A stretch of 34,265 bases of DNA from a virus (taxonomy: Duplodnaviria > Caudoviricetes). Position numbers and translations under genes: made by a program. The DNA lies in the IMG/VR virus record IMGVR_UViG_3300027808_000086, positions 1-34,265 of that record; one strand, given 5' to 3'. The notes beneath the pieces are model-generated. The model did not search any database. It saw nothing but the letters and a program-made list of their open reading frames with translations, and had not been told where the DNA came from. How positions within the stretch are numbered: position 1 is the first letter of the stretch; each line of letters opens with the position of its first letter. Positions 9,237 through 34,265 of this stretch are shown here, one piece after another.

Positions 9237-9397
9237 AACAGACTATAATCGATTTAAAATTAAGTTTACTAACAACTACTTATTTCGCATTAACTTTGGC
9301 TGATACAGATTTTATAATGAAATTAGTAGTATTTTTGCTTACAGTTGGATATACTATTCGACGTTGGTATTTATTAGAAAAAAATAAAAAGGATTAA
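9233..9397 (+). CDS. Holin candidate (54 aa, not in ORF track)
   Basis: MKQTIIDLKLSLLTTTYFALTLADTDFIMKLVVFLLTVGYTIRRWYLLEKNKKD: two hydrophobic stretches and a basic C-terminus, immediately before the endolysin. Confidence 0.6.
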   Translation: MKQTIIDLKLSLLTTTYFALTLADTDFIMKLVVFLLTVGYTIRRWYLLEKNKKD

Positions 9398-9399
9398 TT

Positions 9400-9846
9400 A
9401 TGAAATTAAATGAAAAAGGTTATTTAATGATTTGTGAGTTTGAGGGTTTAAGTTTAAAGCCTTATTTATGTCCTGCAAAAATTCCAACAATTGGCTATGG
9501 AAATTGCTATTATAGTAATGGTAAAAAAGTAACGTTATTAGACAAGCCAATTACAAAAAAAGAAGCTTTTGAGCTATTTAAAACAATTGCTGATAAATTT
9601 GGTTTGGCTGTTTTTAAATGTTTGAAACAAGAAGTAAACCAAAATCAATTCAATGCTTTGGTATCTTTTGCTTATAATGTTGGAGTGGCTAATTTTATGA
9701 ATAGTACACTTTTGAAAAAAGTAAATGTAGAACCAAATGATGAGACTATATTTGATGAGTTTTGCAGATGGAATAAGGTAGGTAAAAAAGAGGTGGCAGG
9801 TTTAACAAAAAGGAGAAATTATGAAGCAGTTAGTTATTTTAGTTAG
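9400..9846 (+). CDS. Endolysin, phage lysozyme (GH24)
   Basis: FEGL..KPYLCPA.IPTIGYG, QNQFNALVSFAYNVG, STLLKK and GLTKRR..E motifs. Confidence 0.92.
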   Translation: MKLNEKGYLMICEFEGLSLKPYLCPAKIPTIGYGNCYYSNGKKVTLLDKPITKKEAFELFKTIADKFGLAVFKCLKQEVNQNQFNALVSFAYNVGVANFMNSTLLKKVNVEPNDETIFDEFCRWNKVGKKEVAGLTKRRNYEAVSYFS

Positions 9847-10313: not shown

Positions 10314-11144
10314 ATGAATTTTGACTATTACAAATTAGAAGCGATAAAACATTTTGGTACTAACTTAAATAACAAACAAATAGCAGAAAAGATAATAGTT
10401 GAAAAAAGCGAACTTACAGTTAATACTTTAAGGAAGAAAATCGGTACTTTAAGAACAAAGCAAAATGAACTAAAACCATACGTTGGCACTAATTTAGATA
10501 ACATTTTAATAATTGGGGATTTACATTCCCCTTTTACTTTGCCTAAATATTTAGAATTCTGTAAAGAACAACAAAAAAAATACAATTGTGGACGTGTTAT
10601 TTTTATCGGAGATATAATTGATAATCATTATAGTTCATACCACGAAAGCGACCCCGATGGAATGAGCGCAGGAGACGAACTTGACAAAGCAATACAAGAT
10701 ATACAGGCTTATTACGAAGCATTTCCAACAGCAACTGTTATAATAGGCAACCACGATAGGTTAGTTTACCGTAAAGCCTTTAGCGGTGGTGTTTCAAAGC
10801 GTTGGGTAAAAGAATATAAAGATGTTTTAAAAGTACCAAATTGGGATTTTGTAGAAAGTGTAGAAATATTCAATGTTAATATCAATCACGGTGAGGGTGG
10901 AACTGCAAGAAGTAAAATGAAAAAAGATTTACAAAGCCAAATACAAGGGCATTTACATTCAGATTTTTATTTAGAATATATAGTCGGTAAAAACTTTAGA
11001 ATATTTGGAATGCAAGTAGGATGTGGCGTGGACCATCATAGTTACGCTATGGCTTATGGTAAAAATTTTAAAAAACCTGCAATAGGTTGTGGAGTTTTAC
11101 TTAATAAAGGAACACTTCCGATTTTAATTCCTATGATACTATAA
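10314..11144 (+). CDS. Calcineurin-like metallophosphoesterase with N-terminal HTH-like segment
   Basis: GDLH, GDIID, GNHD, HG and GHLH metal-binding motifs. Confidence 0.9.
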   Translation: MNFDYYKLEAIKHFGTNLNNKQIAEKIIVEKSELTVNTLRKKIGTLRTKQNELKPYVGTNLDNILIIGDLHSPFTLPKYLEFCKEQQKKYNCGRVIFIGDIIDNHYSSYHESDPDGMSAGDELDKAIQDIQAYYEAFPTATVIIGNHDRLVYRKAFSGGVSKRWVKEYKDVLKVPNWDFVESVEIFNVNINHGEGGTARSKMKKDLQSQIQGHLHSDFYLEYIVGKNFRIFGMQVGCGVDHHSYAMAYGKNFKKPAIGCGVLLNKGTLPILIPMIL

Positions 11145-11171
11145 AAAGTGGTTTGATTACCTATCTTTTTT

Positions 11172-11201
11172 AACCTGCAATTAATTTGTGGGTTTTTTTT
11201 T
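11172..11201 (+). terminator. Intrinsic terminator ending the late region
   Basis: AACCTGCAA-ttaat-TTGTGGGTT followed by a long T tract. Confidence 0.8.
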
Positions 11202-11234: not shown

Positions 11235-11242
11235 TATATTTG
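11235..11242 (+). promoter_or_regulatory. Bacteroidota primary-sigma -7 element (TAnnTTTG)
   Basis: TATATTTG immediately upstream of a structured non-coding leader. Confidence 0.7.
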
Positions 11243-11244
11243 TA

Positions 11245-11347
11245 AAATCAATTTGACTAGACACTTATTGATTTAAGAGGTCAAATTGTAAAAGCAAAAC
11301 ACACCCTTAGCAAAGTAGTCTAGTCCTTTGTTAAGGGTTTTTTGTTT
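11245..11347 (+). ncRNA. Candidate two-hairpin kissing-loop RNA / attenuator
   Basis: Stem 11245-11252/11267-11274 with loop GACTAGAC; terminator-like stem 11303-11315/11326-11338 with loop GTCTAGTC; T tract follows. Confidence 0.6.
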
Positions 11348-11633: not shown

Positions 11634-11768
11634 ATGAAAAATATATCTGACTATTTATTCAATAAGTATTTTAACTGCACATTAGCAAGTAAACAATATT
11701 GGTTTGATTTGTATTTAAAAGCATACTTTAAAGAACAGAAATTAAAGCAAGGAATAAAAGTTAAATAA
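11634..11768 (+). CDS. Small hypothetical protein (44 aa, not in ORF track)
   Basis: MKNISDYLFNKYFNC...KQYWFDLYLKAY... Confidence 0.5.
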   Translation: MKNISDYLFNKYFNCTLASKQYWFDLYLKAYFKEQKLKQGIKVK

Positions 11769-11856
11769 ATGTTAAAGATTAATTAACTACTATTATATTA
11801 ATAAAGTAGTTGTATATTTGTACCAGCAATAAAGCTAAAGAAAAACAAATATTATG
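11760..11856 (+). promoter_or_regulatory. Early promoter module 1
   Basis: GTTAAATA..TGTTAAAG, TATTAATA, TATATTTG (11813-11820); leader nearly identical to 21728-21775. Confidence 0.75.
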
Positions 11857-11979
11857 AAAGCATCTAAACAAACAGTTAAAATATTCGGACAAACAGTAAC
11901 TGTAGGAACTAAACTTCACGCTAAATTAGTTCAACAAAAAAAACAATTTGACGATTTAAATACTTACGAAAATAACTAA
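11854..11979 (+). CDS. Small early protein (41 aa, not in ORF track)
   Basis: MKASKQTVKIFGQTVTVGTKLHAKL...; first ORF after the promoter module. Confidence 0.6.
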   Translation: MKASKQTVKIFGQTVTVGTKLHAKLVQQKKQFDDLNTYENN

Positions 11980-11994
11980 TAAAATACTAAAAAT

Positions 11995-12375
11995 ATGAAA
12001 TTAATATCAATGACAGATTTTTTGCCAAAGCATCCGTATTCAATATTCCTAAAACAACCTTTAGAGATATGGATGTTTGTTCCGTGTGATGAGAATGGGA
12101 ATGTTTTTGAAAAACCAATAGATTTTGATTATTTTGAAACATTTAACGTAAGTACTTTGACTAAACAGCCAACACAAAAACAATATAAAGAATGGCATAC
12201 TTTTAAAGATGCAAAAGAAAGATGTTTGTTTGAAGGGTTTGAGTTTGACAATCCTTATGTAAAATCAATCAATTATGGGTTTCACGTAAAAGCCGCTGAT
12301 AAAATAATGATTGAAGATTTAGTAAAATACAATTTACAACTAACCCAAACAGCAATTAAACAATTAGGATTATGA
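11995..12375 (+). CDS. Hypothetical protein
   Basis: 126-aa ORF with A-rich start context. Confidence 0.65.
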   Translation: MKLISMTDFLPKHPYSIFLKQPLEIWMFVPCDENGNVFEKPIDFDYFETFNVSTLTKQPTQKQYKEWHTFKDAKERCLFEGFEFDNPYVKSINYGFHVKAADKIMIEDLVKYNLQLTQTAIKQLGL

Positions 12376-12497
12376 AATACATTACACGAAATTTAGAACC
12401 ATTAATTATAGGCTTTACAGTAGCTTTATTAACTGTTAATATAATTAATATAATAGTTGATATTATTTTAAAAATAGCAATACTTAAATATAAATAA
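12372..12497 (+). CDS. Small membrane protein (41 aa, not in ORF track)
   Basis: MKYITRNLEPLIIGFTVALLTVNIINIIVDIILK...; ATGA coupling to the upstream gene. Confidence 0.55.
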   Translation: MKYITRNLEPLIIGFTVALLTVNIINIIVDIILKIAILKYK

Positions 12498-15028: not shown

Positions 15029-15574
15029 ATGAAACCTAAAAAATGCAAAGTATGCCTAACAACTTTTGAGCCTAAACAATTTGCCCAGTCTGTTTGTTCG
15101 CCAATTTGTGCAATTAAGCATTCTAAAAACTTAAAACTATCAAAAGCATTAAAAGAATGGAATGCAGAAAAGAAAATAATTAAAGATAAAATTAAAACAC
15201 TTTCTGAATATGAGAAAGATGCAAAAAAATCATTTCAACATTGGATCAGATTAAGAGACAAAAATTTACCTTGTATTTCGTGCGGTAATTCAAACACAAC
15301 TGATTGGGCTGGGGGTCATTTTTATTCAGCTGGAATGTATAGCGGGTTTATGTTTGATGAGCGTAACGTACATAAGCAGTGTAATACGCATTGTAATAAA
15401 CATTTAAGCGGTAATTTATTAGAATATAGAAAAGGATTGATTAAACGGTACGGTAATGCGTTTGTAGATGAGTTAGACAGCATAAGCGACAGCAAAAGAA
15501 ATTATAAATACACAAAGGCTGAGTTAATAGCAAAAAAATTGAAGTACGATATAAAGATTAAAGAAATAAAGTAG
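15029..15574 (+). CDS. ninG: NinG/Rap-like recombination endonuclease
   Basis: KKCKVC...F.P.....VCS..CA, WIRLRD..PCISCG, GGHF, FDERNVHKQC..CN..LSGN..EYR.GL..RYG. Confidence 0.9.
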   Translation: MKPKKCKVCLTTFEPKQFAQSVCSPICAIKHSKNLKLSKALKEWNAEKKIIKDKIKTLSEYEKDAKKSFQHWIRLRDKNLPCISCGNSNTTDWAGGHFYSAGMYSGFMFDERNVHKQCNTHCNKHLSGNLLEYRKGLIKRYGNAFVDELDSISDSKRNYKYTKAELIAKKLKYDIKIKEIK

Positions 15575-15646
15575 TATATTTGTATTTCATAATAAAAGTG
15601 TTTGTAGTAATTAATCCGATTAGTTGAGGGACTAGTCGGATTTTTT
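15575..15646 (+). ncRNA. Candidate small RNA unit: promoter, anti-start-codon seed, terminator
   Basis: TATATTTG 15575-15582, then TTTCATAATAAAAGTGTTTG, then a 12-bp hairpin 15613-15642 with T tract; no ATG-initiated ORF on +. Confidence 0.6.
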
Positions 15647-15660
15647 ATTTATACCTACTT

Positions 15661-15769
15661 GTTAAATATTTGTTAAAGAATAATATAATAGTTGTATATT
15701 AATAAAAGAGTTATATATTTGTACTCAGATAACAACAACGAAGTTTTTATCACTAAAAAAAATATAATG
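15661..15769 (+). promoter_or_regulatory. Early promoter module 2
   Basis: GTTAAATA-TT-TGTTAAAG, TATTAATA 15697-15704, TATATTTG 15714-15721; same spacing as module 1. Confidence 0.7.
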
Positions 15770-15883
15770 GCATATTCAAAAAAACCACTACCAAAAAGAG
15801 TCACAATTTTTGAACAAGAGAAATTAAACAGACTAAAAGCAATTGAATATTTAAAACGAATAAAAGAATCAAAATCAAAATGA
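15767..15883 (+). CDS. Small basic early protein (38 aa)
   Basis: Likely start ATG 15767 (MAYSKKPLPKR...); the track start at 15692 lies inside the promoter. Confidence 0.55.
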   Translation: MAYSKKPLPKRVTIFEQEKLNRLKAIEYLKRIKESKSK

Positions 15884-15969
15884 AAAAGCAAACACAACTA
15901 AACATAGGCTTTATAATAGCAACTTATTTTATCGGTAGAATTTTACTAACATTAATATTTAACATTTAA
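15880..15969 (+). CDS. Small membrane peptide (29 aa, not in ORF track)
   Basis: MKKQTQLNIGFIIATYFIGRILLTLIFNI; ATGA-coupled. Confidence 0.5.
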   Translation: MKKQTQLNIGFIIATYFIGRILLTLIFNI

Positions 15970-21672: not shown

Positions 21673-21775
21673 ATGTTAAAGTTTTCTTAATTTATTTAAT
21701 AAGATAGTATTTTATTAATATAGTTGATGTATATTTGTACCAGCAATGAAGCTAAAGAAAAAAACAAATATTATG
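21661..21775 (+). promoter_or_regulatory. Early promoter module 3
   Basis: GTTAAATA...TGTTAAAG, TATTAATA 21713-21720, TATATTTG 21730-21737; leader TACCAGCAATGAAGCTAAAGAAAAAAACAAATATTATG nearly identical to module 1. Confidence 0.75.
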
Positions 21776-21940
21776 ACAACTCTAGAATATAAAAACCAAG
21801 CATTAATTTATAATAGAAATTTAAAAACTATTAAAACACAATTGAATCAAAAACAAATATCTGAATTAAAAACAAAATATAATTGTATTGATGATGGTCA
21901 TTTAGCTAAAATTACAATGTTAAGAGGAATAATAATTTAA
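21773..21940 (+). CDS. Small early protein (55 aa)
   Basis: Likely start ATG 21773, by analogy with the module 1 leader. Confidence 0.6.
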   Translation: MTTLEYKNQALIYNRNLKTIKTQLNQKQISELKTKYNCIDDGHLAKITMLRGIII

Positions 21941-24249: not shown

Positions 24250-24282
24250 CTATTTGCTAACCGCTATAAATACAAATCTTTT

Positions 24283-24465
24283 ATGAAGTCATATACTAAA
24301 AATATTACGGTTAACGTTTCTGAAATTCAGTTTAACACTTTAGAAAAAATAAGAGCTAATAACATAAAAGTAGGCAATTTTATACGTGAAGCAATAGCCG
24401 AAAAGATTAAACGAGATTACAAACAATTAATATTAAAACCTAAAAAATCGGAATGTCCTTTTTAA
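24283..24465 (+). CDS. Ribbon-helix-helix regulator (putative)
   Basis: KNITVNVSE..F..L...GNFIREAI.EK pattern. Confidence 0.65.
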   Translation: MKSYTKNITVNVSEIQFNTLEKIRANNIKVGNFIREAIAEKIKRDYKQLILKPKKSECPF

Positions 24466-25360: not shown

Positions 25361-25792
25361 ATGATATTAAAAGAATTAGCTAAAAGTGATGTTAAATGGC
25401 GTGAAATGGCATACAACATTTGCCGTGATAAAACGTTGGCCGATGAGTTGGTACAAGATATGTATATTAAGTTACATAGCATAGATAAAACCGTAACCGA
25501 TGGTTATATTTTCGTTACGTTACGGTCAATCTTTTACGATGGAATTAGAAAGAGCAAAAAAGAAATACTGTTTGAAGATTTTGATAGGTTTGTAATAGAA
25601 GATGAGCCGTATATCGAAGAGCCACAACCCGACTACCAAGAACTAATAAAAGATTTAACTTGGTACGAAAAGACTACATTTGAATTATCAACTTTAGTAG
25701 GACAAAGAGAGTTAGCAAGACAAACAGGCATACATTTACAAACTATACACCGAGTAGCGAAAACAGTTAAAAATAAATTAAAAAATAAATAA
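25361..25792 (+). CDS. Phage ECF-like sigma factor
   Basis: Region 2-like A..I....LADELVQDMYIKL...Y....LRS.F.D and C-terminal HTH RELARQTGI..QTI; ATG 25361 preferred over TTG 25355. Confidence 0.75.
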   Translation: MILKELAKSDVKWREMAYNICRDKTLADELVQDMYIKLHSIDKTVTDGYIFVTLRSIFYDGIRKSKKEILFEDFDRFVIEDEPYIEEPQPDYQELIKDLTWYEKTTFELSTLVGQRELARQTGIHLQTIHRVAKTVKNKLKNK

Positions 25793-29779: not shown

Positions 29780-30840
29780 ATATAGTACAAGTTAGAAGTC
29801 CGTTTAAAATAGTTATAAATCAAGGTGGGCAGTTATTTACACAAGTGAAATTATACATTTGGAATAAAGGAAATACAGAGCCAATAATACCAACTTATAC
29901 ATTTAGTAAAGCCGTGCCAAGTTTAGCAAATAGGGAATGCGTGTTTAATATTTCAAATCAGTTGCAAGAATTTGTAAATCCTATTGCTGCTGAAACAGTT
30001 ACTGCAATTACAGAAGAAAATCCAAAAAGTTGGTGTTTTTTTAAAGTTGAAAGATATACTGGCACAGATGCAAAAGATTTAGCATTATTAGATACTACAA
30101 ATTATATTGGCTTAAATGGATTTACGCAGTATATGGATGGAAATCAAGGAGGAGAAACCGCAAATTATAAAACATTAGTAAATGTAAATGATTTATATAC
30201 TGATAATAATAAGGCTTATTTTAATTTGCTAATTGATGCAGATGTCGTTAATTATTCTTTATTATATAGTGCTTACGATTACGAATATATTATTAATGAT
30301 TATTTTACTGGAATTGTTTTATTAAAAATACCTTTTATATTAGAAGCACTTGAACCTTCGTTATACAATCAATTTAATATAACATTAGTTGATCCAAGTA
30401 TTGAAAAGGGTGATTTATTTAGAATTACTTCTATTCCAACCGAAGAATGTAAATATACGCCAGTAACTTGCACCTTTCAAAATTCATTAGGAGGTTGGCA
30501 GTATTTAACGTTCTTTAAAGCACAAACTAATAGCATAACTGTAAAAGGTTCGGAATTTAATTTACTTCCAAATGATACCGATTACAATCCATTAAGAGGT
30601 CAAACAAAAGTATTTAATTTAAACGGAAATCAATCTGTAAAATTAAACACTGGATGGGTAGATGAAAGTTATAATATATTAATACGTGATTTATTATTAA
30701 GTGAAACTGTTTTAATTGATGATAAACCCGCAATGGTTAAGAGCAAAAGCCAAACTTATAAAACACAATTAAAAGATAAAATGATTAATTACGAAATAGA
30801 ATTTGATTATGCTTTTGACTTAATAAATAATGTAGTATGA
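29776..30840 (+). CDS. Distal tail / baseplate protein (putative)
   Basis: F.NSLGGW..L.F, LNTGWV.E and LLLSE.V in the C-terminal part; tail module. Confidence 0.55.
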   Translation: MNIVQVRSPFKIVINQGGQLFTQVKLYIWNKGNTEPIIPTYTFSKAVPSLANRECVFNISNQLQEFVNPIAAETVTAITEENPKSWCFFKVERYTGTDAKDLALLDTTNYIGLNGFTQYMDGNQGGETANYKTLVNVNDLYTDNNKAYFNLLIDADVVNYSLLYSAYDYEYIINDYFTGIVLLKIPFILEALEPSLYNQFNITLVDPSIEKGDLFRITSIPTEECKYTPVTCTFQNSLGGWQYLTFFKAQTNSITVKGSEFNLLPNDTDYNPLRGQTKVFNLNGNQSVKLNTGWVDESYNILIRDLLLSETVLIDDKPAMVKSKSQTYKTQLKDKMINYEIEFDYAFDLINNVV

Positions 30841-33395
30841 TAAATGTAGGATTGTTTGTAAAAAAAGAAAAGGTATTTGAAAGTGGTGTTAATAGCTATA
30901 CTGAAAACAATTATATTGTTGATGATACTAAAGTTTGGATAGAGCAACAATGGGTAAATTATTATATTAGAATTATTGAAGGAACTGGAAAAGGATATTT
31001 TTTTAAATGCACATATAGTGGTGAAAATATATTATTCTTTGACCCGCTTCCATTTACATTAGATATTACATCACAATATGAAATATACACGCAAGTAAGC
31101 GAACGTGTTGAATTATTCCAAGATGAAAAAATAAGCGTTACAAGTTCTATTCAAAATTCAAATGATATAGGTAAATTGTTTACTGACTATTCTCAAAGTT
31201 TTACAGTTCCAGCTTCTAAGCATAATAACGCATTATTCTCACATTGGTATGAAAGCGATGTAGATAATGGATATGATCACAGAAAGCGTTACGATGCTTA
31301 TATCGAATTAGATACATTGACTTTTAAAGTTGGAAATGTACAATTAGAAAAAGCAAATAAAAAGAACGGATATATTGAAAGTTATAGCATTACTTTTTAT
31401 GGAAATTTAACACAATTAAAAGACAAATTTAAAGATATTAAATTAAGGGATTTACCAACGGGTATAGATGCTGATTATTGGGAAACTGATAATTTTTGGG
31501 GAATATTCAATCATACCTATAATTCAACAGAAGTTAAGGGCAGAATAATGTCGGGAGCTGGGAATGTGCTATATCCGTTAATAGGTTCACAAAAAAAATA
31601 CTATTATAAAAATGGCGTGGCTTTAGAAGATATAACTTTAGCAACTGCCCCAATAGTATGGAATGAATTGTTCCCAACTGTTCCTATGACTTCAATTTTA
31701 TATATTATTCAACAATGTTTTAAAATTACTTTTACGGGTTCATTTTTTGATTTAGACCAATGGACAAAATTACATTTATATTTAAAAAACGCTGAAAAAT
31801 TAAAAGTAAATACTTTAGCAATAATTATTAAACCAGATTCAATAAGTGGAAGTTTTCCAGAATGGAATCCAACCACTGGTTTATTAACAACAAATTGGAC
31901 TTATACAACGGGAACTCCTACGGGTTTATATAGACGAATTAACGTAACTATTACACCTACTAATACAGCGATACCATATACTATATATATATATAAAAAC
32001 AGTTCTTTATTTTCAACATTACAAGGTTTAGGAAATAGGATGTATTTAGTTGACCAACACTACAAATCAGAAGAACCAAACGATAGTATTTATGAAATTA
32101 AAGTTTCATTTGATGCTCCAAATACCTACACTTCTAAAATATGGTATGATAGATTTTTAAACGGTAGTTTCTTTTCACGAGCAAGTGCAACAAATTCTTC
32201 GTCACAATCAACTGTTTCAACAATAGAATTGGAAAATTACGTGCCAGATATTACTATTTCAGATTTTATAACTGGAATTATTAAGGCGTTCAATCTTATG
32301 GTTATTCCTACTGGAATAGATACTTACGAATTTATACCATTAGAAATGTTTTATAATTCTGGTAAGATTACAGATATAACTAAATATGTTGATGCAAAGG
32401 AATTGGATATTAACAGACCGAAATTATTTAAGGCTATTAATTTTCAATATGAAAAGAGCACGAATATACTTAACAACGCATATAAAGGCATTTATAACAC
32501 TGAATACGGAGATTTAATTTATAACGCTACAAATGCAAACGAAAGTTCTAATTATGATATTAAACTACCATTTGAGAATGTTATGTTTGAAAGAACAGTA
32601 GGCGAAAATTTTGAAACTGCATCGATAATTGATAAGGATTTAAAGCCTTATATTCCAAAGCCTATGTTAATTTATTGCAATGGAATTAGCGAAGTTTCAG
32701 ATGCTATAAGAATGACAACAGAAACAACTGAAACTACATTTACAAATTATACAAGATTTTCAAATGAGTATAATAGTTTGCCAACAGATGCAACGTTATC
32801 GCAATTGATGACAATGAATTTTAACAACGAGCAATCGCCTTGGTATAACGTAATAGCACCTCAAGGATTGTATTATAGGCATTATTCAAATTACATTGAT
32901 AATCTTTATAATATTAAAACAAGAAACATAAAAGTAAAAGCTATTTTACCACCAAGTTTATTATCAAAAGAATACGGAATTGCTTTAAACGATAGGCTTG
33001 TAATAAGTGGTAAAAGATATATTATTAATTCTTTTACAACAGATTTAACCACTGGAGAAACAAACTTCGATTTAATTTCAGATTATCGAAATATAGATGC
33101 ACGTTCAACGGTTGGTTATAGGTTTGCAAATATGAGCCAAGTACAAACAGACCGAACAGCACAAACAGTTGAACTAATAATTTATAAAAATGATTATGAC
33201 AGTTTTAATATTAAAGGTGCTGAAAACTATTTAACTTATACAACGAGCACTGATAACGTTACAGATTTAGAATTAGTAGTAACTATACCATACAATAGTG
33301 GAGTAGATAGAACCGATAGAATAGGCATTGAATATTTAAGAAATGGAGCAATAGAAACAACGGAATACATAACATTTTTACAAACTCAAATATGA
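30837..33395 (+). CDS. Tail hub / tip protein (852 aa)
   Basis: YSQSFTVPAS..NN..F, YPLI, PDI.I.DF..GI.K.FNL and L.D.....G..Y.IN pattern; largest tail gene. Confidence 0.6.
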   Translation: MINVGLFVKKEKVFESGVNSYTENNYIVDDTKVWIEQQWVNYYIRIIEGTGKGYFFKCTYSGENILFFDPLPFTLDITSQYEIYTQVSERVELFQDEKISVTSSIQNSNDIGKLFTDYSQSFTVPASKHNNALFSHWYESDVDNGYDHRKRYDAYIELDTLTFKVGNVQLEKANKKNGYIESYSITFYGNLTQLKDKFKDIKLRDLPTGIDADYWETDNFWGIFNHTYNSTEVKGRIMSGAGNVLYPLIGSQKKYYYKNGVALEDITLATAPIVWNELFPTVPMTSILYIIQQCFKITFTGSFFDLDQWTKLHLYLKNAEKLKVNTLAIIIKPDSISGSFPEWNPTTGLLTTNWTYTTGTPTGLYRRINVTITPTNTAIPYTIYIYKNSSLFSTLQGLGNRMYLVDQHYKSEEPNDSIYEIKVSFDAPNTYTSKIWYDRFLNGSFFSRASATNSSSQSTVSTIELENYVPDITISDFITGIIKAFNLMVIPTGIDTYEFIPLEMFYNSGKITDITKYVDAKELDINRPKLFKAINFQYEKSTNILNNAYKGIYNTEYGDLIYNATNANESSNYDIKLPFENVMFERTVGENFETASIIDKDLKPYIPKPMLIYCNGISEVSDAIRMTTETTETTFTNYTRFSNEYNSLPTDATLSQLMTMNFNNEQSPWYNVIAPQGLYYRHYSNYIDNLYNIKTRNIKVKAILPPSLLSKEYGIALNDRLVISGKRYIINSFTTDLTTGETNFDLISDYRNIDARSTVGYRFANMSQVQTDRTAQTVELIIYKNDYDSFNIKGAENYLTYTTSTDNVTDLELVVTIPYNSGVDRTDRIGIEYLRNGAIETTEYITFLQTQI

Positions 33396-33538
33396 TACAA
33401 CACATAATGGAAATGCTAAAGTTAGCAGAGCAATACGAGCACAATGAAATAATAGCAATTGCAAAAGGAAAATATGAATATCCTAAATCAAACTATCAAC
33501 TTTTTAAGAAGTTATTAAAAATAAAATTAAATAAATAA
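33392..33538 (+). CDS. Small protein preceding tape measure (48 aa, not in ORF track)
   Basis: MIQHIMEMLKL...EIIAIAKGKY...; ATGA-coupled; its 3' part recurs at 1..119. Confidence 0.6.
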   Translation: MIQHIMEMLKLAEQYEHNEIIAIAKGKYEYPKSNYQLFKKLLKIKLNK

Positions 33539-34265
33539 GATATGGCTATTGAGAAAGTAATAGATTTACAAATAAAAAGCAATGCAGACCAAGCTGAAAA
33601 ATCGGTTGGAAGTTTAAAAAGCCAATTAAGAGAAGCACAGGCTGAGGTTGCTACATTATCCGACAAGTTTGGAGCAACTTCACGAGAAGCGATTGAAGCA
33701 GCTAAAAAAGCGGGAGAGCTTAAAGATAGGATAGGGGATGCAAAAGCATTGACCGAAGCATTTAATCCAGACGCTAAATTCAAGGCTTTAAGTAGTTCAT
33801 TAAGCGGTGTAGCTGGTGGATTTGCAGCGGTGCAAGGTGGTATGGCTTTATTTGGTAGTCAATCTGAGGATGTAGAAAAGACTTTATTAAAAGTACAATC
33901 CGCAATGGCACTTTCGCAAGGTTTACAATCGATTGGCGAAAGCGTAGATTCATTTAAGCAATTAGGAGCTGTTTTAAAAAGCACTTCCGTAGTTCAAAAG
34001 GTAATGACAGCCGCAACAGCAGCTTATACATTTGTTACTGAAGCATCAACAGCGGGTTTAAAACTATTCAGATTGGCTTTAATTGGTACGGGCGTAGGTG
34101 CTTTAGTAGTTGGAGTTGGTTTATTAATTGCTAATTTCGATAAGGTTAAAAAAGTAATAATGAACCTTATACCTGGTTTAGCTTCGGTTGGAGAATTTAT
34201 AGGTGGTATTGTAGATTCAGTTACTGACTTCGTAGGTGCAACTTCCGATGCTACAAGAGCCGTTG
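33420..34265. repeat. Right copy of imperfect terminal direct repeat
   Basis: 846 bp versus 837 bp at the left end. Confidence 0.95.
33542..34265 (+). CDS. Tape measure protein, second allele, truncated by window end
   Basis: MAIEKVIDLQIKSNADQAEKSVGSLK...; open to the window edge. Confidence 0.8.
   Translation, partial: MAIEKVIDLQIKSNADQAEKSVGSLKSQLREAQAEVATLSDKFGATSREAIEAAKKAGELKDRIGDAKALTEAFNPDAKFKALSSSLSGVAGGFAAVQGGMALFGSQSEDVEKTLLKVQSAMALSQGLQSIGESVDSFKQLGAVLKSTSVVQKVMTAATAAYTFVTEASTAGLKLFRLALIGTGVGALVVGVGLLIANFDKVKKVIMNLIPGLASVGEFIGGIVDSVTDFVGATSDATRAV

What the first reader, a model, noticed from the sequence alone, without database searches (positions are those of the whole stretch)
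15575..15646. Self-contained small RNA whose 5' end is antisense to translation start regions
Seen: a promoter element (TATATTTG) and a 12-bp terminator enclose about 60 nt with no ORF. The 5' part (TTT)CATAATAAAAGTGTTTG is the reverse complement of a typical start context, CAAACACTTTTATTATGAAA. In-genome complements include TATTATGAAA (11850-11859, first early gene, with AAACA upstream), ATTATGAAATAC (12369-12380) and ATTATGAAAT (9397-9406, endolysin). Established: Bacteroidota initiate from A-rich regions without Shine-Dalgarno sequences. Inference: a trans-acting anti-start-codon sRNA silencing phage or host mRNAs. Short matches are common in AT-rich DNA, so the targets are tentative.
Basis: partly seen in the sequence, partly recalled or inferred. 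Interest (0 to 1): 0.7.

Follow-up and report, generated by a model that had tools for sequence, protein, structure and literature searches.

The report
Phage RNA masking early start codons
Right after its ninG gene this Flavobacterium-type phage, like many relatives, keeps a promoter-to-terminator unit predicted to make a 63-base RNA whose free front end is complementary to start-codon regions, so it likely damps translation of the phage's own early genes, though this copy pairs more weakly than its relatives' and no transcript has been seen.

Summary
A Bacteroidota -7 box (15575-82) abuts the ninG stop, and a strong terminator follows (15613-42). The predicted RNA is about 15587-15649, with 19 unpaired 5' bases that mirror a start region (p=0.01 against shuffles). 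The layout recurs after ninG in related phages with unrelated hairpins and no conserved minus-strand ORF. Across the family, seeds pair better with their own phage's downstream early starts than with other phages' (20 units, p=0.00005; 9 lineages, p=0.01), host starts (21 of 23) or own late starts (11 of 13). This copy is an exception. Three substitutions (15595-97) roughly halve predicted pairing to its two main early leaders against a sister allele (-9 versus -15 to -17 kcal/mol), and its own starts pair no better than controls. The unit works like Bacteroides FopS/GibS but is not a FopS member (no Rfam hit). No conserved host target was found and no RNA data exist. This scan noted the same kind of unit before on other genomes (8 notes shown). 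Verdict: a real, untested, phage-borne anti-start sRNA variant.

The parts
15029..15574 (+). ninG/Rap endonuclease gene, last gene of the upstream operon; its last codons hold the promoter's upstream region
   Evidence: PHROG 171, E 3.9e-59; sequence
15575..15582 (+). Bacteroidota primary-sigma -7 promoter box TATATTTG (predicted)
   Evidence: fits TAHHTTTG (PMC6847099 section 14); a box at the same place in NinG-selected relatives
15587..15649 (+). predicted ~63-nt small RNA (start 15587 or 15588)
   Evidence: spacing; fold; no transcript seen (one search lists no RNA holder)
15587..15612 (+). single-stranded anti-start seed; 5' UCAUAAUA pairs over AUG
   Evidence: first 19 nt unpaired in the MFE structure; antisense score against start profile p=0.01; 7 or more perfect pairs over AUG at 14 of 68 window starts
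15595..15597 (+). three-base allele difference (AAA here, TTT in L717, L009, L018) that weakens pairing to the phage's own early leaders
   Evidence: no difference from the window listed here in contigs of runs X2, X7, X14
15613..15649 (+). intrinsic terminator hairpin and U tract; would also end the operon that finishes with ninG
   Evidence: 1 of 17 pairs changed on both sides among 4 close copies; unrelated hairpins in distant copies
15714..15721 (+). next -7 box, heading the early/recombination operon (small ORFs, Erf, AAA ATPase)
   Evidence: a second box 125-180 bp downstream in many relatives
11840..11857 (+). candidate target: start region of the first gene after the -7 box at 11813
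   Evidence: 8 perfect pairs; dG -9.3 with this allele, -17.0 with the L717 allele
21759..21776 (+). candidate target: start region of the first gene after the -7 box at 21730
   Evidence: 8 perfect pairs; dG -9.0 with this allele, -14.8 with the L717 allele
24262..24287 (+). best-pairing start region for this allele (60-aa ORF at 24283); not kept in the homologous gene of G006
   Evidence: dG -15.0; stronger hits lie inside coding regions

Best explanation
The unit likely makes a ~63-nt RNA from a host-sigma promoter, and its unpaired 5' end would pair over the A-rich leader and AUG of several of the phage's own early mRNAs and damp their translation, as FopS and GibS do to Bacteroides mRNAs. 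Shown: the box, the terminator, the complementarity, the recurrence across relatives and the family-wide bias towards own early starts. Inferred: transcription, pairing in vivo, and the purpose. The likely purpose is a brake that builds up during infection and frees ribosomes for late mRNAs, whose starts pair less well. This copy is predicted to be an attenuated allele that keeps a 7-8-nt anti-AUG seed but has lost the continuous pairing its sister alleles have with the main early leaders.
For: Layout: among 58 distinct low-GC NinG loci (one, L001, the window's twin), 12 have box plus terminator just after ninG by script; 8 of those carry CAT, 3 are a U-rich lineage without CAT, 1 is a leader. 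Two more (L006, L100) show box, CAT and hairpin by eye. Seeds score as mirrored starts in 15 of 29 hand-picked units, against 1 of 19 other promoter-terminator units once 4 copies of seed-type units are set aside from the 23 controls. Own downstream starts pair better than host starts in 21 of 23 units, own late starts in 11 of 13, other phages' in 16 of 23. Matched-pair test: diagonal -1.85 kcal/mol, p=0.00005 for 20 units; p=0.010 for 9 lineages; shuffled seeds give -0.82 to +0.10. Phages whose seed has TTAGTG carry CACTAA in 34 of 320 starts against 20 of 690 in the others and 7 of 676 host starts. G006 and G008 seeds pair at -19.7 and -16.8 with a first gene behind one of their own promoters, beyond the host 5th percentile. 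Precedent: FopS-10 blocks translation by pairing next to the start codon (PMC11697453 sections 12-13).
Against: For this copy own starts are no better than pooled ones (p=0.51; p=0.64), own downstream starts tie with host starts (-7.8 and -7.8), it ranks 9 of 20 and 24 of 27, and its best genome-wide duplexes lie inside coding regions. The first-gene-only matched test is not significant (p=0.085). No orthologous target gene recurs across phages. The 29 units were hand-picked, several from scans that required CAT or TTTTAGT. Eleven of the 20 units fall in one lineage, and shared start style between kin could produce part of the signal. Duplex energies ignore target structure. Early and late labels are inferred from gene content.
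Confidence: 0.5

Rival explanations
1. The RNA is made but its main targets are host mRNAs: a broad anti-start RNA that lowers host translation or silences defence or surface genes early in infection.
For: A host-sigma promoter implies expression on entry (inference). FopS targets are cellular mRNAs. This allele pairs with 26.5% of 200 sampled host starts at the -8 kcal/AUG-covering threshold, near the 32% for own starts. A few of 676 host starts reach -15 to -18.
Against: A wobble-tolerant 19-nt complement occurs 33 times in 31 of 301 Flavobacterium-genus genomes, with the reversed control ringing at least as often by eye; only 8 of 30 checked matches open an ORF. The CACTAA start style mirrored by sister seeds is rare in hosts. 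The true host is unknown, so a host-specific target is not excluded.
Confidence: 0.18
2. The RNA acts on related phages: a resident genome blocks the early starts of an incoming or co-infecting relative (RNA-based exclusion), and seed alleles diverge to spare self.
For: This seed pairs slightly better with other phages' downstream starts than with its own (-8.7 against -7.8; same direction for G006 and G008). The allele that spares its own leaders is seen unchanged in contigs of three other studies. One contig in run X1 shares the early promoter region and continues with a start region ending TTTTTATTATGG (loose end at 15751).
Against: Most family members match self better than kin. The best kin starts reach only -14.8. 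The exact 17-nt complement in viral contigs comes mostly from copies of a few unrelated genes.
Confidence: 0.1
3. It is only the terminator and 3' end of the ninG operon; the U-rich segment is a relic (for example an inverted copy of an early leader) without regulatory effect, at least in this copy.
For: The hairpin would end the upstream operon. TTCATAAT also follows -7 boxes in ordinary Bacteroidota mRNA leaders. This allele shows no target enrichment.
Against: The box is kept at the stop codon across phages whose hairpins are unrelated. CAT lies 5-37 nt from the box in relatives, so it is not only a start-site preference. The unit stays intact behind a different upstream gene (G008; runs X2, X7, X14).
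Confidence: 0.13
4. The U-rich single strand works by titrating an RNA-binding protein (an RbpB-like RRM protein or ribosomal protein bS1) rather than by pairing.
For: RbpB binds the 5' part of FopS and AU-rich sequence. One lineage and the unit of phage P12024S lack CAT but keep the U-rich tract.
Against: Seeds track own start sequences in register with AUG, which protein titration does not need.
Confidence: 0.07
5. The CAT starts a minus-strand micro-gene (MKYKYTTLFL), and the mirrored start region is simply its ribosome-binding region.
For: The reverse strand reads as a good start region and opens 10 codons.
Against: The frames opened in relatives run from 1 to about 20 codons with no shared sequence beyond the promoter box. 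No minus-strand -7 box lies between 15646 and 15714.
Confidence: 0.02

Closest known systems
FopS family of paralogous sRNAs, Bacteroides thetaiotaomicron (Rfam RF04319; PMC11697453: abstract, sections 8, 10-14, 28, passages, rows of supplementary file 4; figures not seen)
   Same: Primary-sigma promoter, single-stranded 5' seed, terminator hairpin; the 5' end holds an anti-AUG (the FopS-10 primer has TTTTTCATAG); blocks initiation by pairing at start regions; the paper reports one copy in a Bacteroides phage.
   Different: No match of this unit to RF04319 at E<=10; single copy; phage-borne in a Flavobacterium-type phage; predicted targets are phage early genes, not SusC transporters; seed and hairpin vary between phages. 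A sister unit in G022 scores 27.4 bits (cut-off 56).
GibS sRNA, B. thetaiotaomicron (PMC7366714: passages read)
   Same: Unstructured 5' seed that spans the start codon of target mRNAs in an organism without Shine-Dalgarno sequences.
   Different: GibS is longer, has two seeds and its own promoter motif, and is chromosomal; no Rfam match in the window at E<=1.
Rfp18 sRNA, Flavobacterium psychrophilum (PMC9723704 section 20)
   Same: Trans-acting sRNA in the likely host genus.
   Different: Structured, pairs through a third stem-loop, and supports rather than lowers protease mRNA levels; sequence not compared here.
Phage regulatory antisense RNAs: lambda OOP, P22 sar, P1 C4, P4 CI (recalled, no call)
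   Same: Short promoter-to-terminator phage RNAs that control phage genes by pairing.
   Different: Those act on one or two defined transcripts, mostly in cis-antisense; this one mirrors a start style shared by many genes.

Membership tests
FopS (RF04319) | Score over the Rfam gathering cut-off (56 bits) | tested here: not met
   No match at 15575-15650 at E<=10 in G000; 0 of 5 phage records over the cut-off; best 27.4 bits for the G022 unit; no family at E<=1 in the window
FopS (RF04319) | R1/R1' seed sequence at the 5' end | tested here: inconclusive
   Shares TTTCATA with the FopS-10 primer by eye, then diverges; Fig. 3a with the seed limits was not visible
FopS (RF04319) | [quoted passage not shown] | tested here: met
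   (prediction only)
FopS (RF04319) | Canonical primary-sigma promoter | tested here: met
   TATATTTG at 15575; sequence match only
FopS (RF04319) | Multicopy in the genome | tested here: not met
   One seed-type unit in the window; two in G005
FopS (RF04319) | Binds RbpB and represses susC-type mRNAs | not testable with these tools
   needs bench work
Trans-acting anti-start sRNA (functional class) | A discrete transcript exists | not testable with these tools
   no RNA holder listed among 19 runs
Trans-acting anti-start sRNA (functional class) | Seed complementary to start regions beyond chance | tested here: met
   p=0.01 against shuffles; AUG-covering duplexes at 32% of own starts against at most 23.5% in 60 shuffles
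Trans-acting anti-start sRNA (functional class) | Specific targets that stand out from background | tested here: inconclusive
   met for the family, not for this copy
Type I toxin-antitoxin antitoxin | Long specific pairing with the leader of a neighbouring small hydrophobic peptide | tested here: not met
   The 29-aa peptide at 15880 pairs at -10.8 with no AUG pairs; homologous peptides range from -8 to -24

The most novel reading that the evidence does not exclude
Flavobacterium-type phages share a widespread class of one-RNA master switches that exploit the lack of Shine-Dalgarno sequences by mirroring the phage's own early start style, and seed alleles such as this one are retuned to spare self and block kin or host: RNA-coded timing and exclusion without a repressor protein.
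Probability: 0.2. Interest if true: 0.8.

Novelty: new variant of a known kind. Interest (0 to 1): 0.52.

Why it matters
How phages of Bacteroidota switch from early to late protein synthesis is little studied. If true, a 60-base RNA aimed at a shared start-region style would be a simple regulon-wide brake, extend the FopS/GibS mechanism from gut Bacteroides chromosomes to aquatic phages, and give a programmable knock-down scaffold for flavobacteria. Cultured phage 11b carries a clear unit, so the idea is directly testable.

Tried and rejected
Rfam scan of the window: 0 matches at E<=1. Sequencing runs: no RNA holder listed among 19. Run X11 laid nothing. Chromosomal homologues: a promoter-TCATAA-TTTTAGT pattern hit 9 of 151 Flavobacterium-genus genomes, fewer than the reversed control by eye; of 120 genome matches to the box-plus-TTCATAAT pattern only 4 had a terminator by script, so a host-coded twin was not found in those searched. 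Conserved host target: not found; two matches open an ORF whose N-terminus looks like ribosomal protein S6 (name recalled), too few to count. The 60-aa gene at 24283 as a specific target: rejected, because the G006 homologue has a different leader and coding-region hits are stronger. Type I toxin-antitoxin with the 29-aa peptide: rejected. The scan for box plus TTTTAGTGA was mostly noise: 8 of 120 with a terminator. Exact 17-nt complement in viral contigs: 46 of 80 sit at plausible starts but are mostly copies of a few unrelated genes. In phage 11b the best-pairing leader (-22.3) opens only 5 codons, and the adjacent early gene pairs at -14.3, short of the host 5th percentile of -15.2. Literature: searches listed no description of such a phage unit (listings only; subscription journals are not covered). 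Supplements: only PMC11697453's were searched; Table S8 of PMC9723704 (85 F. psychrophilum RNAs) was not read and may hold a similar RNA.

Full report
Setting. The window is a 34,265-bp virus record, 30% G+C, with nearly all genes on the + strand. It has terminase, endolysin, Erf, exonuclease, two methyltransferases and NinG. Its nearest cultured matches are Nonlabens phages P12024S/L (40% in a structural protein) and Flavobacterium phage 11b (61% in Erf). A Flavobacteriaceae host is therefore inferred, not shown. Promoter-like TATATTTG boxes in intergenic positions lie at 11235, 11813, 15575, 15714 and 21730. A weak sigma-70 region 2 hit at 25361 (E 0.0003, under the cut-off) precedes the packaging and structural genes, so I label those 'late' and the rest 'early' by inference.

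Observation. The box at 15575-82 follows the ninG stop directly, and a 13-pair hairpin with a T tail lies at 15613-42. In flavobacteria this box spans -12 to -5 (PMC9723704, passages), with 4 or 5 bases to the start site (PMC6847099, section 14). The RNA would thus run from 15587-88 to about 15649. Its first 19 bases are unpaired in the best fold, and no shuffle of 200 folds as well. From 15587 the perfect pairing is 8 bases at 11854 and 21773 (the first genes behind two early boxes) and 7 bases at twelve more starts, 14 of 68 in all. ATTATGA occurs 23 times on the + strand, 13 of them at starts, and once on the - strand.

Recurrence. I collected loci by NinG similarity alone. Of 58 distinct low-GC loci, one being the window's twin, 12 have a box and terminator just after ninG by script: 8 with CAT, 3 of one U-rich lineage without CAT, and 1 leader that runs into a gene. 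L006 and L100 show the same layout by eye. Other phages carry the unit behind a different gene (G004, G005, G008, G009, G019, G022). Distant copies have unrelated hairpins; among four close copies 1 of 17 pairs changed on both sides. Frames opened by the CAT on the minus strand range from 1 to about 20 codons and share nothing beyond the box, which removes the micro-gene reading. Contigs of runs X2, X7 and X14 (three studies) cover the unit with no difference listed between 15575 and 15700, and diverge just upstream of 15562. Cultured phage 11b has a clear unit at 30326 ahead of its Erf operon; P12024S has a U-rich one without CAT.

Is the seed a mirrored start? Against a profile built from the start regions of 1,121 called phage genes, the window's seed scores 9.3 (shuffles 2.5 +/- 1.9, p=0.01). 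Fifteen of 29 hand-picked units reach p<=0.05. Of 23 control units, 4 were copies of seed-type units; 1 of the other 19 reached p<=0.05. Several of the 29 came from scans that required CAT or TTTTAGT, so this count is biased upward.

Whose starts? With simple duplex energies (no accessibility term), starts downstream of the unit pair better on average than 250 sampled Flavobacterium starts in 21 of 23 units, than own late starts in 11 of 13, and than other phages' downstream starts in 16 of 23. A matched-pair test on 20 units gives -1.85 kcal/mol on the diagonal (p=0.00005), p=0.010 on 9 lineages, and -0.82 to +0.10 for shuffled seeds. Using only the first gene, the test is not significant (p=0.085, 27 units). 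Phages whose seed has TTAGTG have CACTAA in 34 of 320 starts, the others in 20 of 690. Hosts have it in 7 of 676, and ATCACTAAAA..ATG occurs 0-8 times per genome in 41 genomes. No single orthologous target recurs. The seed follows a start style shared by early genes.

This copy. It does not follow the family trend. Own starts are no better than pooled ones (p=0.51; p=0.64), own downstream starts tie with host starts, and the best duplexes lie in coding regions. The nearest sister unit (L717) differs in the seed only at 15595-97. Its allele pairs with the window's leaders at -17.0 (11854), -14.8 (21773), -20.3 (24283) and -17.2 (22067), against -9.3, -9.0, -15.0 and -12.6 for the window's allele; only 17616 improves clearly. 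G006 and G008 seeds give -20.0 and -17.6 on the first two. L009, L018 and L717 share TTT there, so the window's allele is probably derived. The window also lacks a gene that in L717 follows the same leader with a well-matched start (-14.8). This allele still covers AUG at 32% of own starts at the -8 kcal threshold (38% early, 22% late; internal ATGs 20.5%, host 26.5%; shuffled seeds at most 23.5%). I read it as attenuated; retargeting to host or kin is not excluded.

Host targets and host twins. A wobble-tolerant 19-base complement occurs 33 times in 31 of 301 genomes, no more than the reversed control by eye, and 8 of 30 checked matches open a frame. A chromosomal version of the unit was not enriched in 151 genomes.

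Comparison. FopS and GibS of B. thetaiotaomicron have the same anatomy and a demonstrated block of initiation (PMC11697453 sections 8, 10-14, 28; PMC7366714 passages). The FopS-10 primer shows an anti-AUG near the 5' end, and the paper notes a copy in one Bacteroides phage. The window's unit does not match RF04319 at E<=10, while the G022 unit scores 27.4 of 56 bits. So it works like FopS by prediction but is not a member. Five searches (listings only) showed no description of such phage units. This scan's earlier notes describe the same kind on other genomes; they are unchecked and not counted as support.

Verdict. A real, conserved promoter-to-terminator unit, most likely an anti-start sRNA that damps the phage's own early translation (0.5). 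Rivals are host targets (0.18), inert terminator (0.13), kin exclusion (0.10), protein sponge (0.07) and micro-gene (0.02). New variant of a known kind; interest 0.52.

Noticed in passing
window 11235-11345 +: Second promoter-terminator unit of another kind: the leader holds a stretch complementary to the terminator loop (GACTAGAC / GTCTAGTC), like an attenuator. Similar units occur in G006, G007, G020, L003, L097, L100, L101. It does not score as a mirrored start.
   Followed up: partly
window 15880-15969 +: 29-aa hydrophobic peptide among the first early genes; look-alike 25-34-aa peptides sit at the same place in G001, G006, G008, G009, G010, G012, L003, L022, L025, L096, L097. No Pfam hit. 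Candidate membrane effector or exclusion peptide.
   Followed up: partly
window 15742-15769 +; L717:420-630: The window appears to have lost an early gene of about 58 codons that L717 carries between the same leader and the next ORF.
   Followed up: partly
window 15660-15677 +: Direct repeat TTGTTAAA spaced one helical turn apart upstream of the early box; similar repeats in L009, L010, L096 and at 11760. Possible transcription-factor site.
   Followed up: no
window 11144-11200 +: Terminator after the phosphoesterase gene is preceded by a U/G-rich stretch resembling the seed's middle, but no -7 box precedes it.
   Followed up: no
window 33392-34265 and 1-1835: The record ends overlap imperfectly: the 570-aa gene at 123 and the 48-aa gene before it recur at the 3' end with substitutions, suggesting a circularly permuted assembly from more than one strain.
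   Followed up: no
G005:10484 and 10626 (-): Two anti-start units in tandem, 142 bp apart.
   Followed up: partly
L801 (phage 11b) 28738 +: A strong early leader, the best match to 11b's seed among those tested (-22.3), opens only 5 codons.
   Followed up: partly
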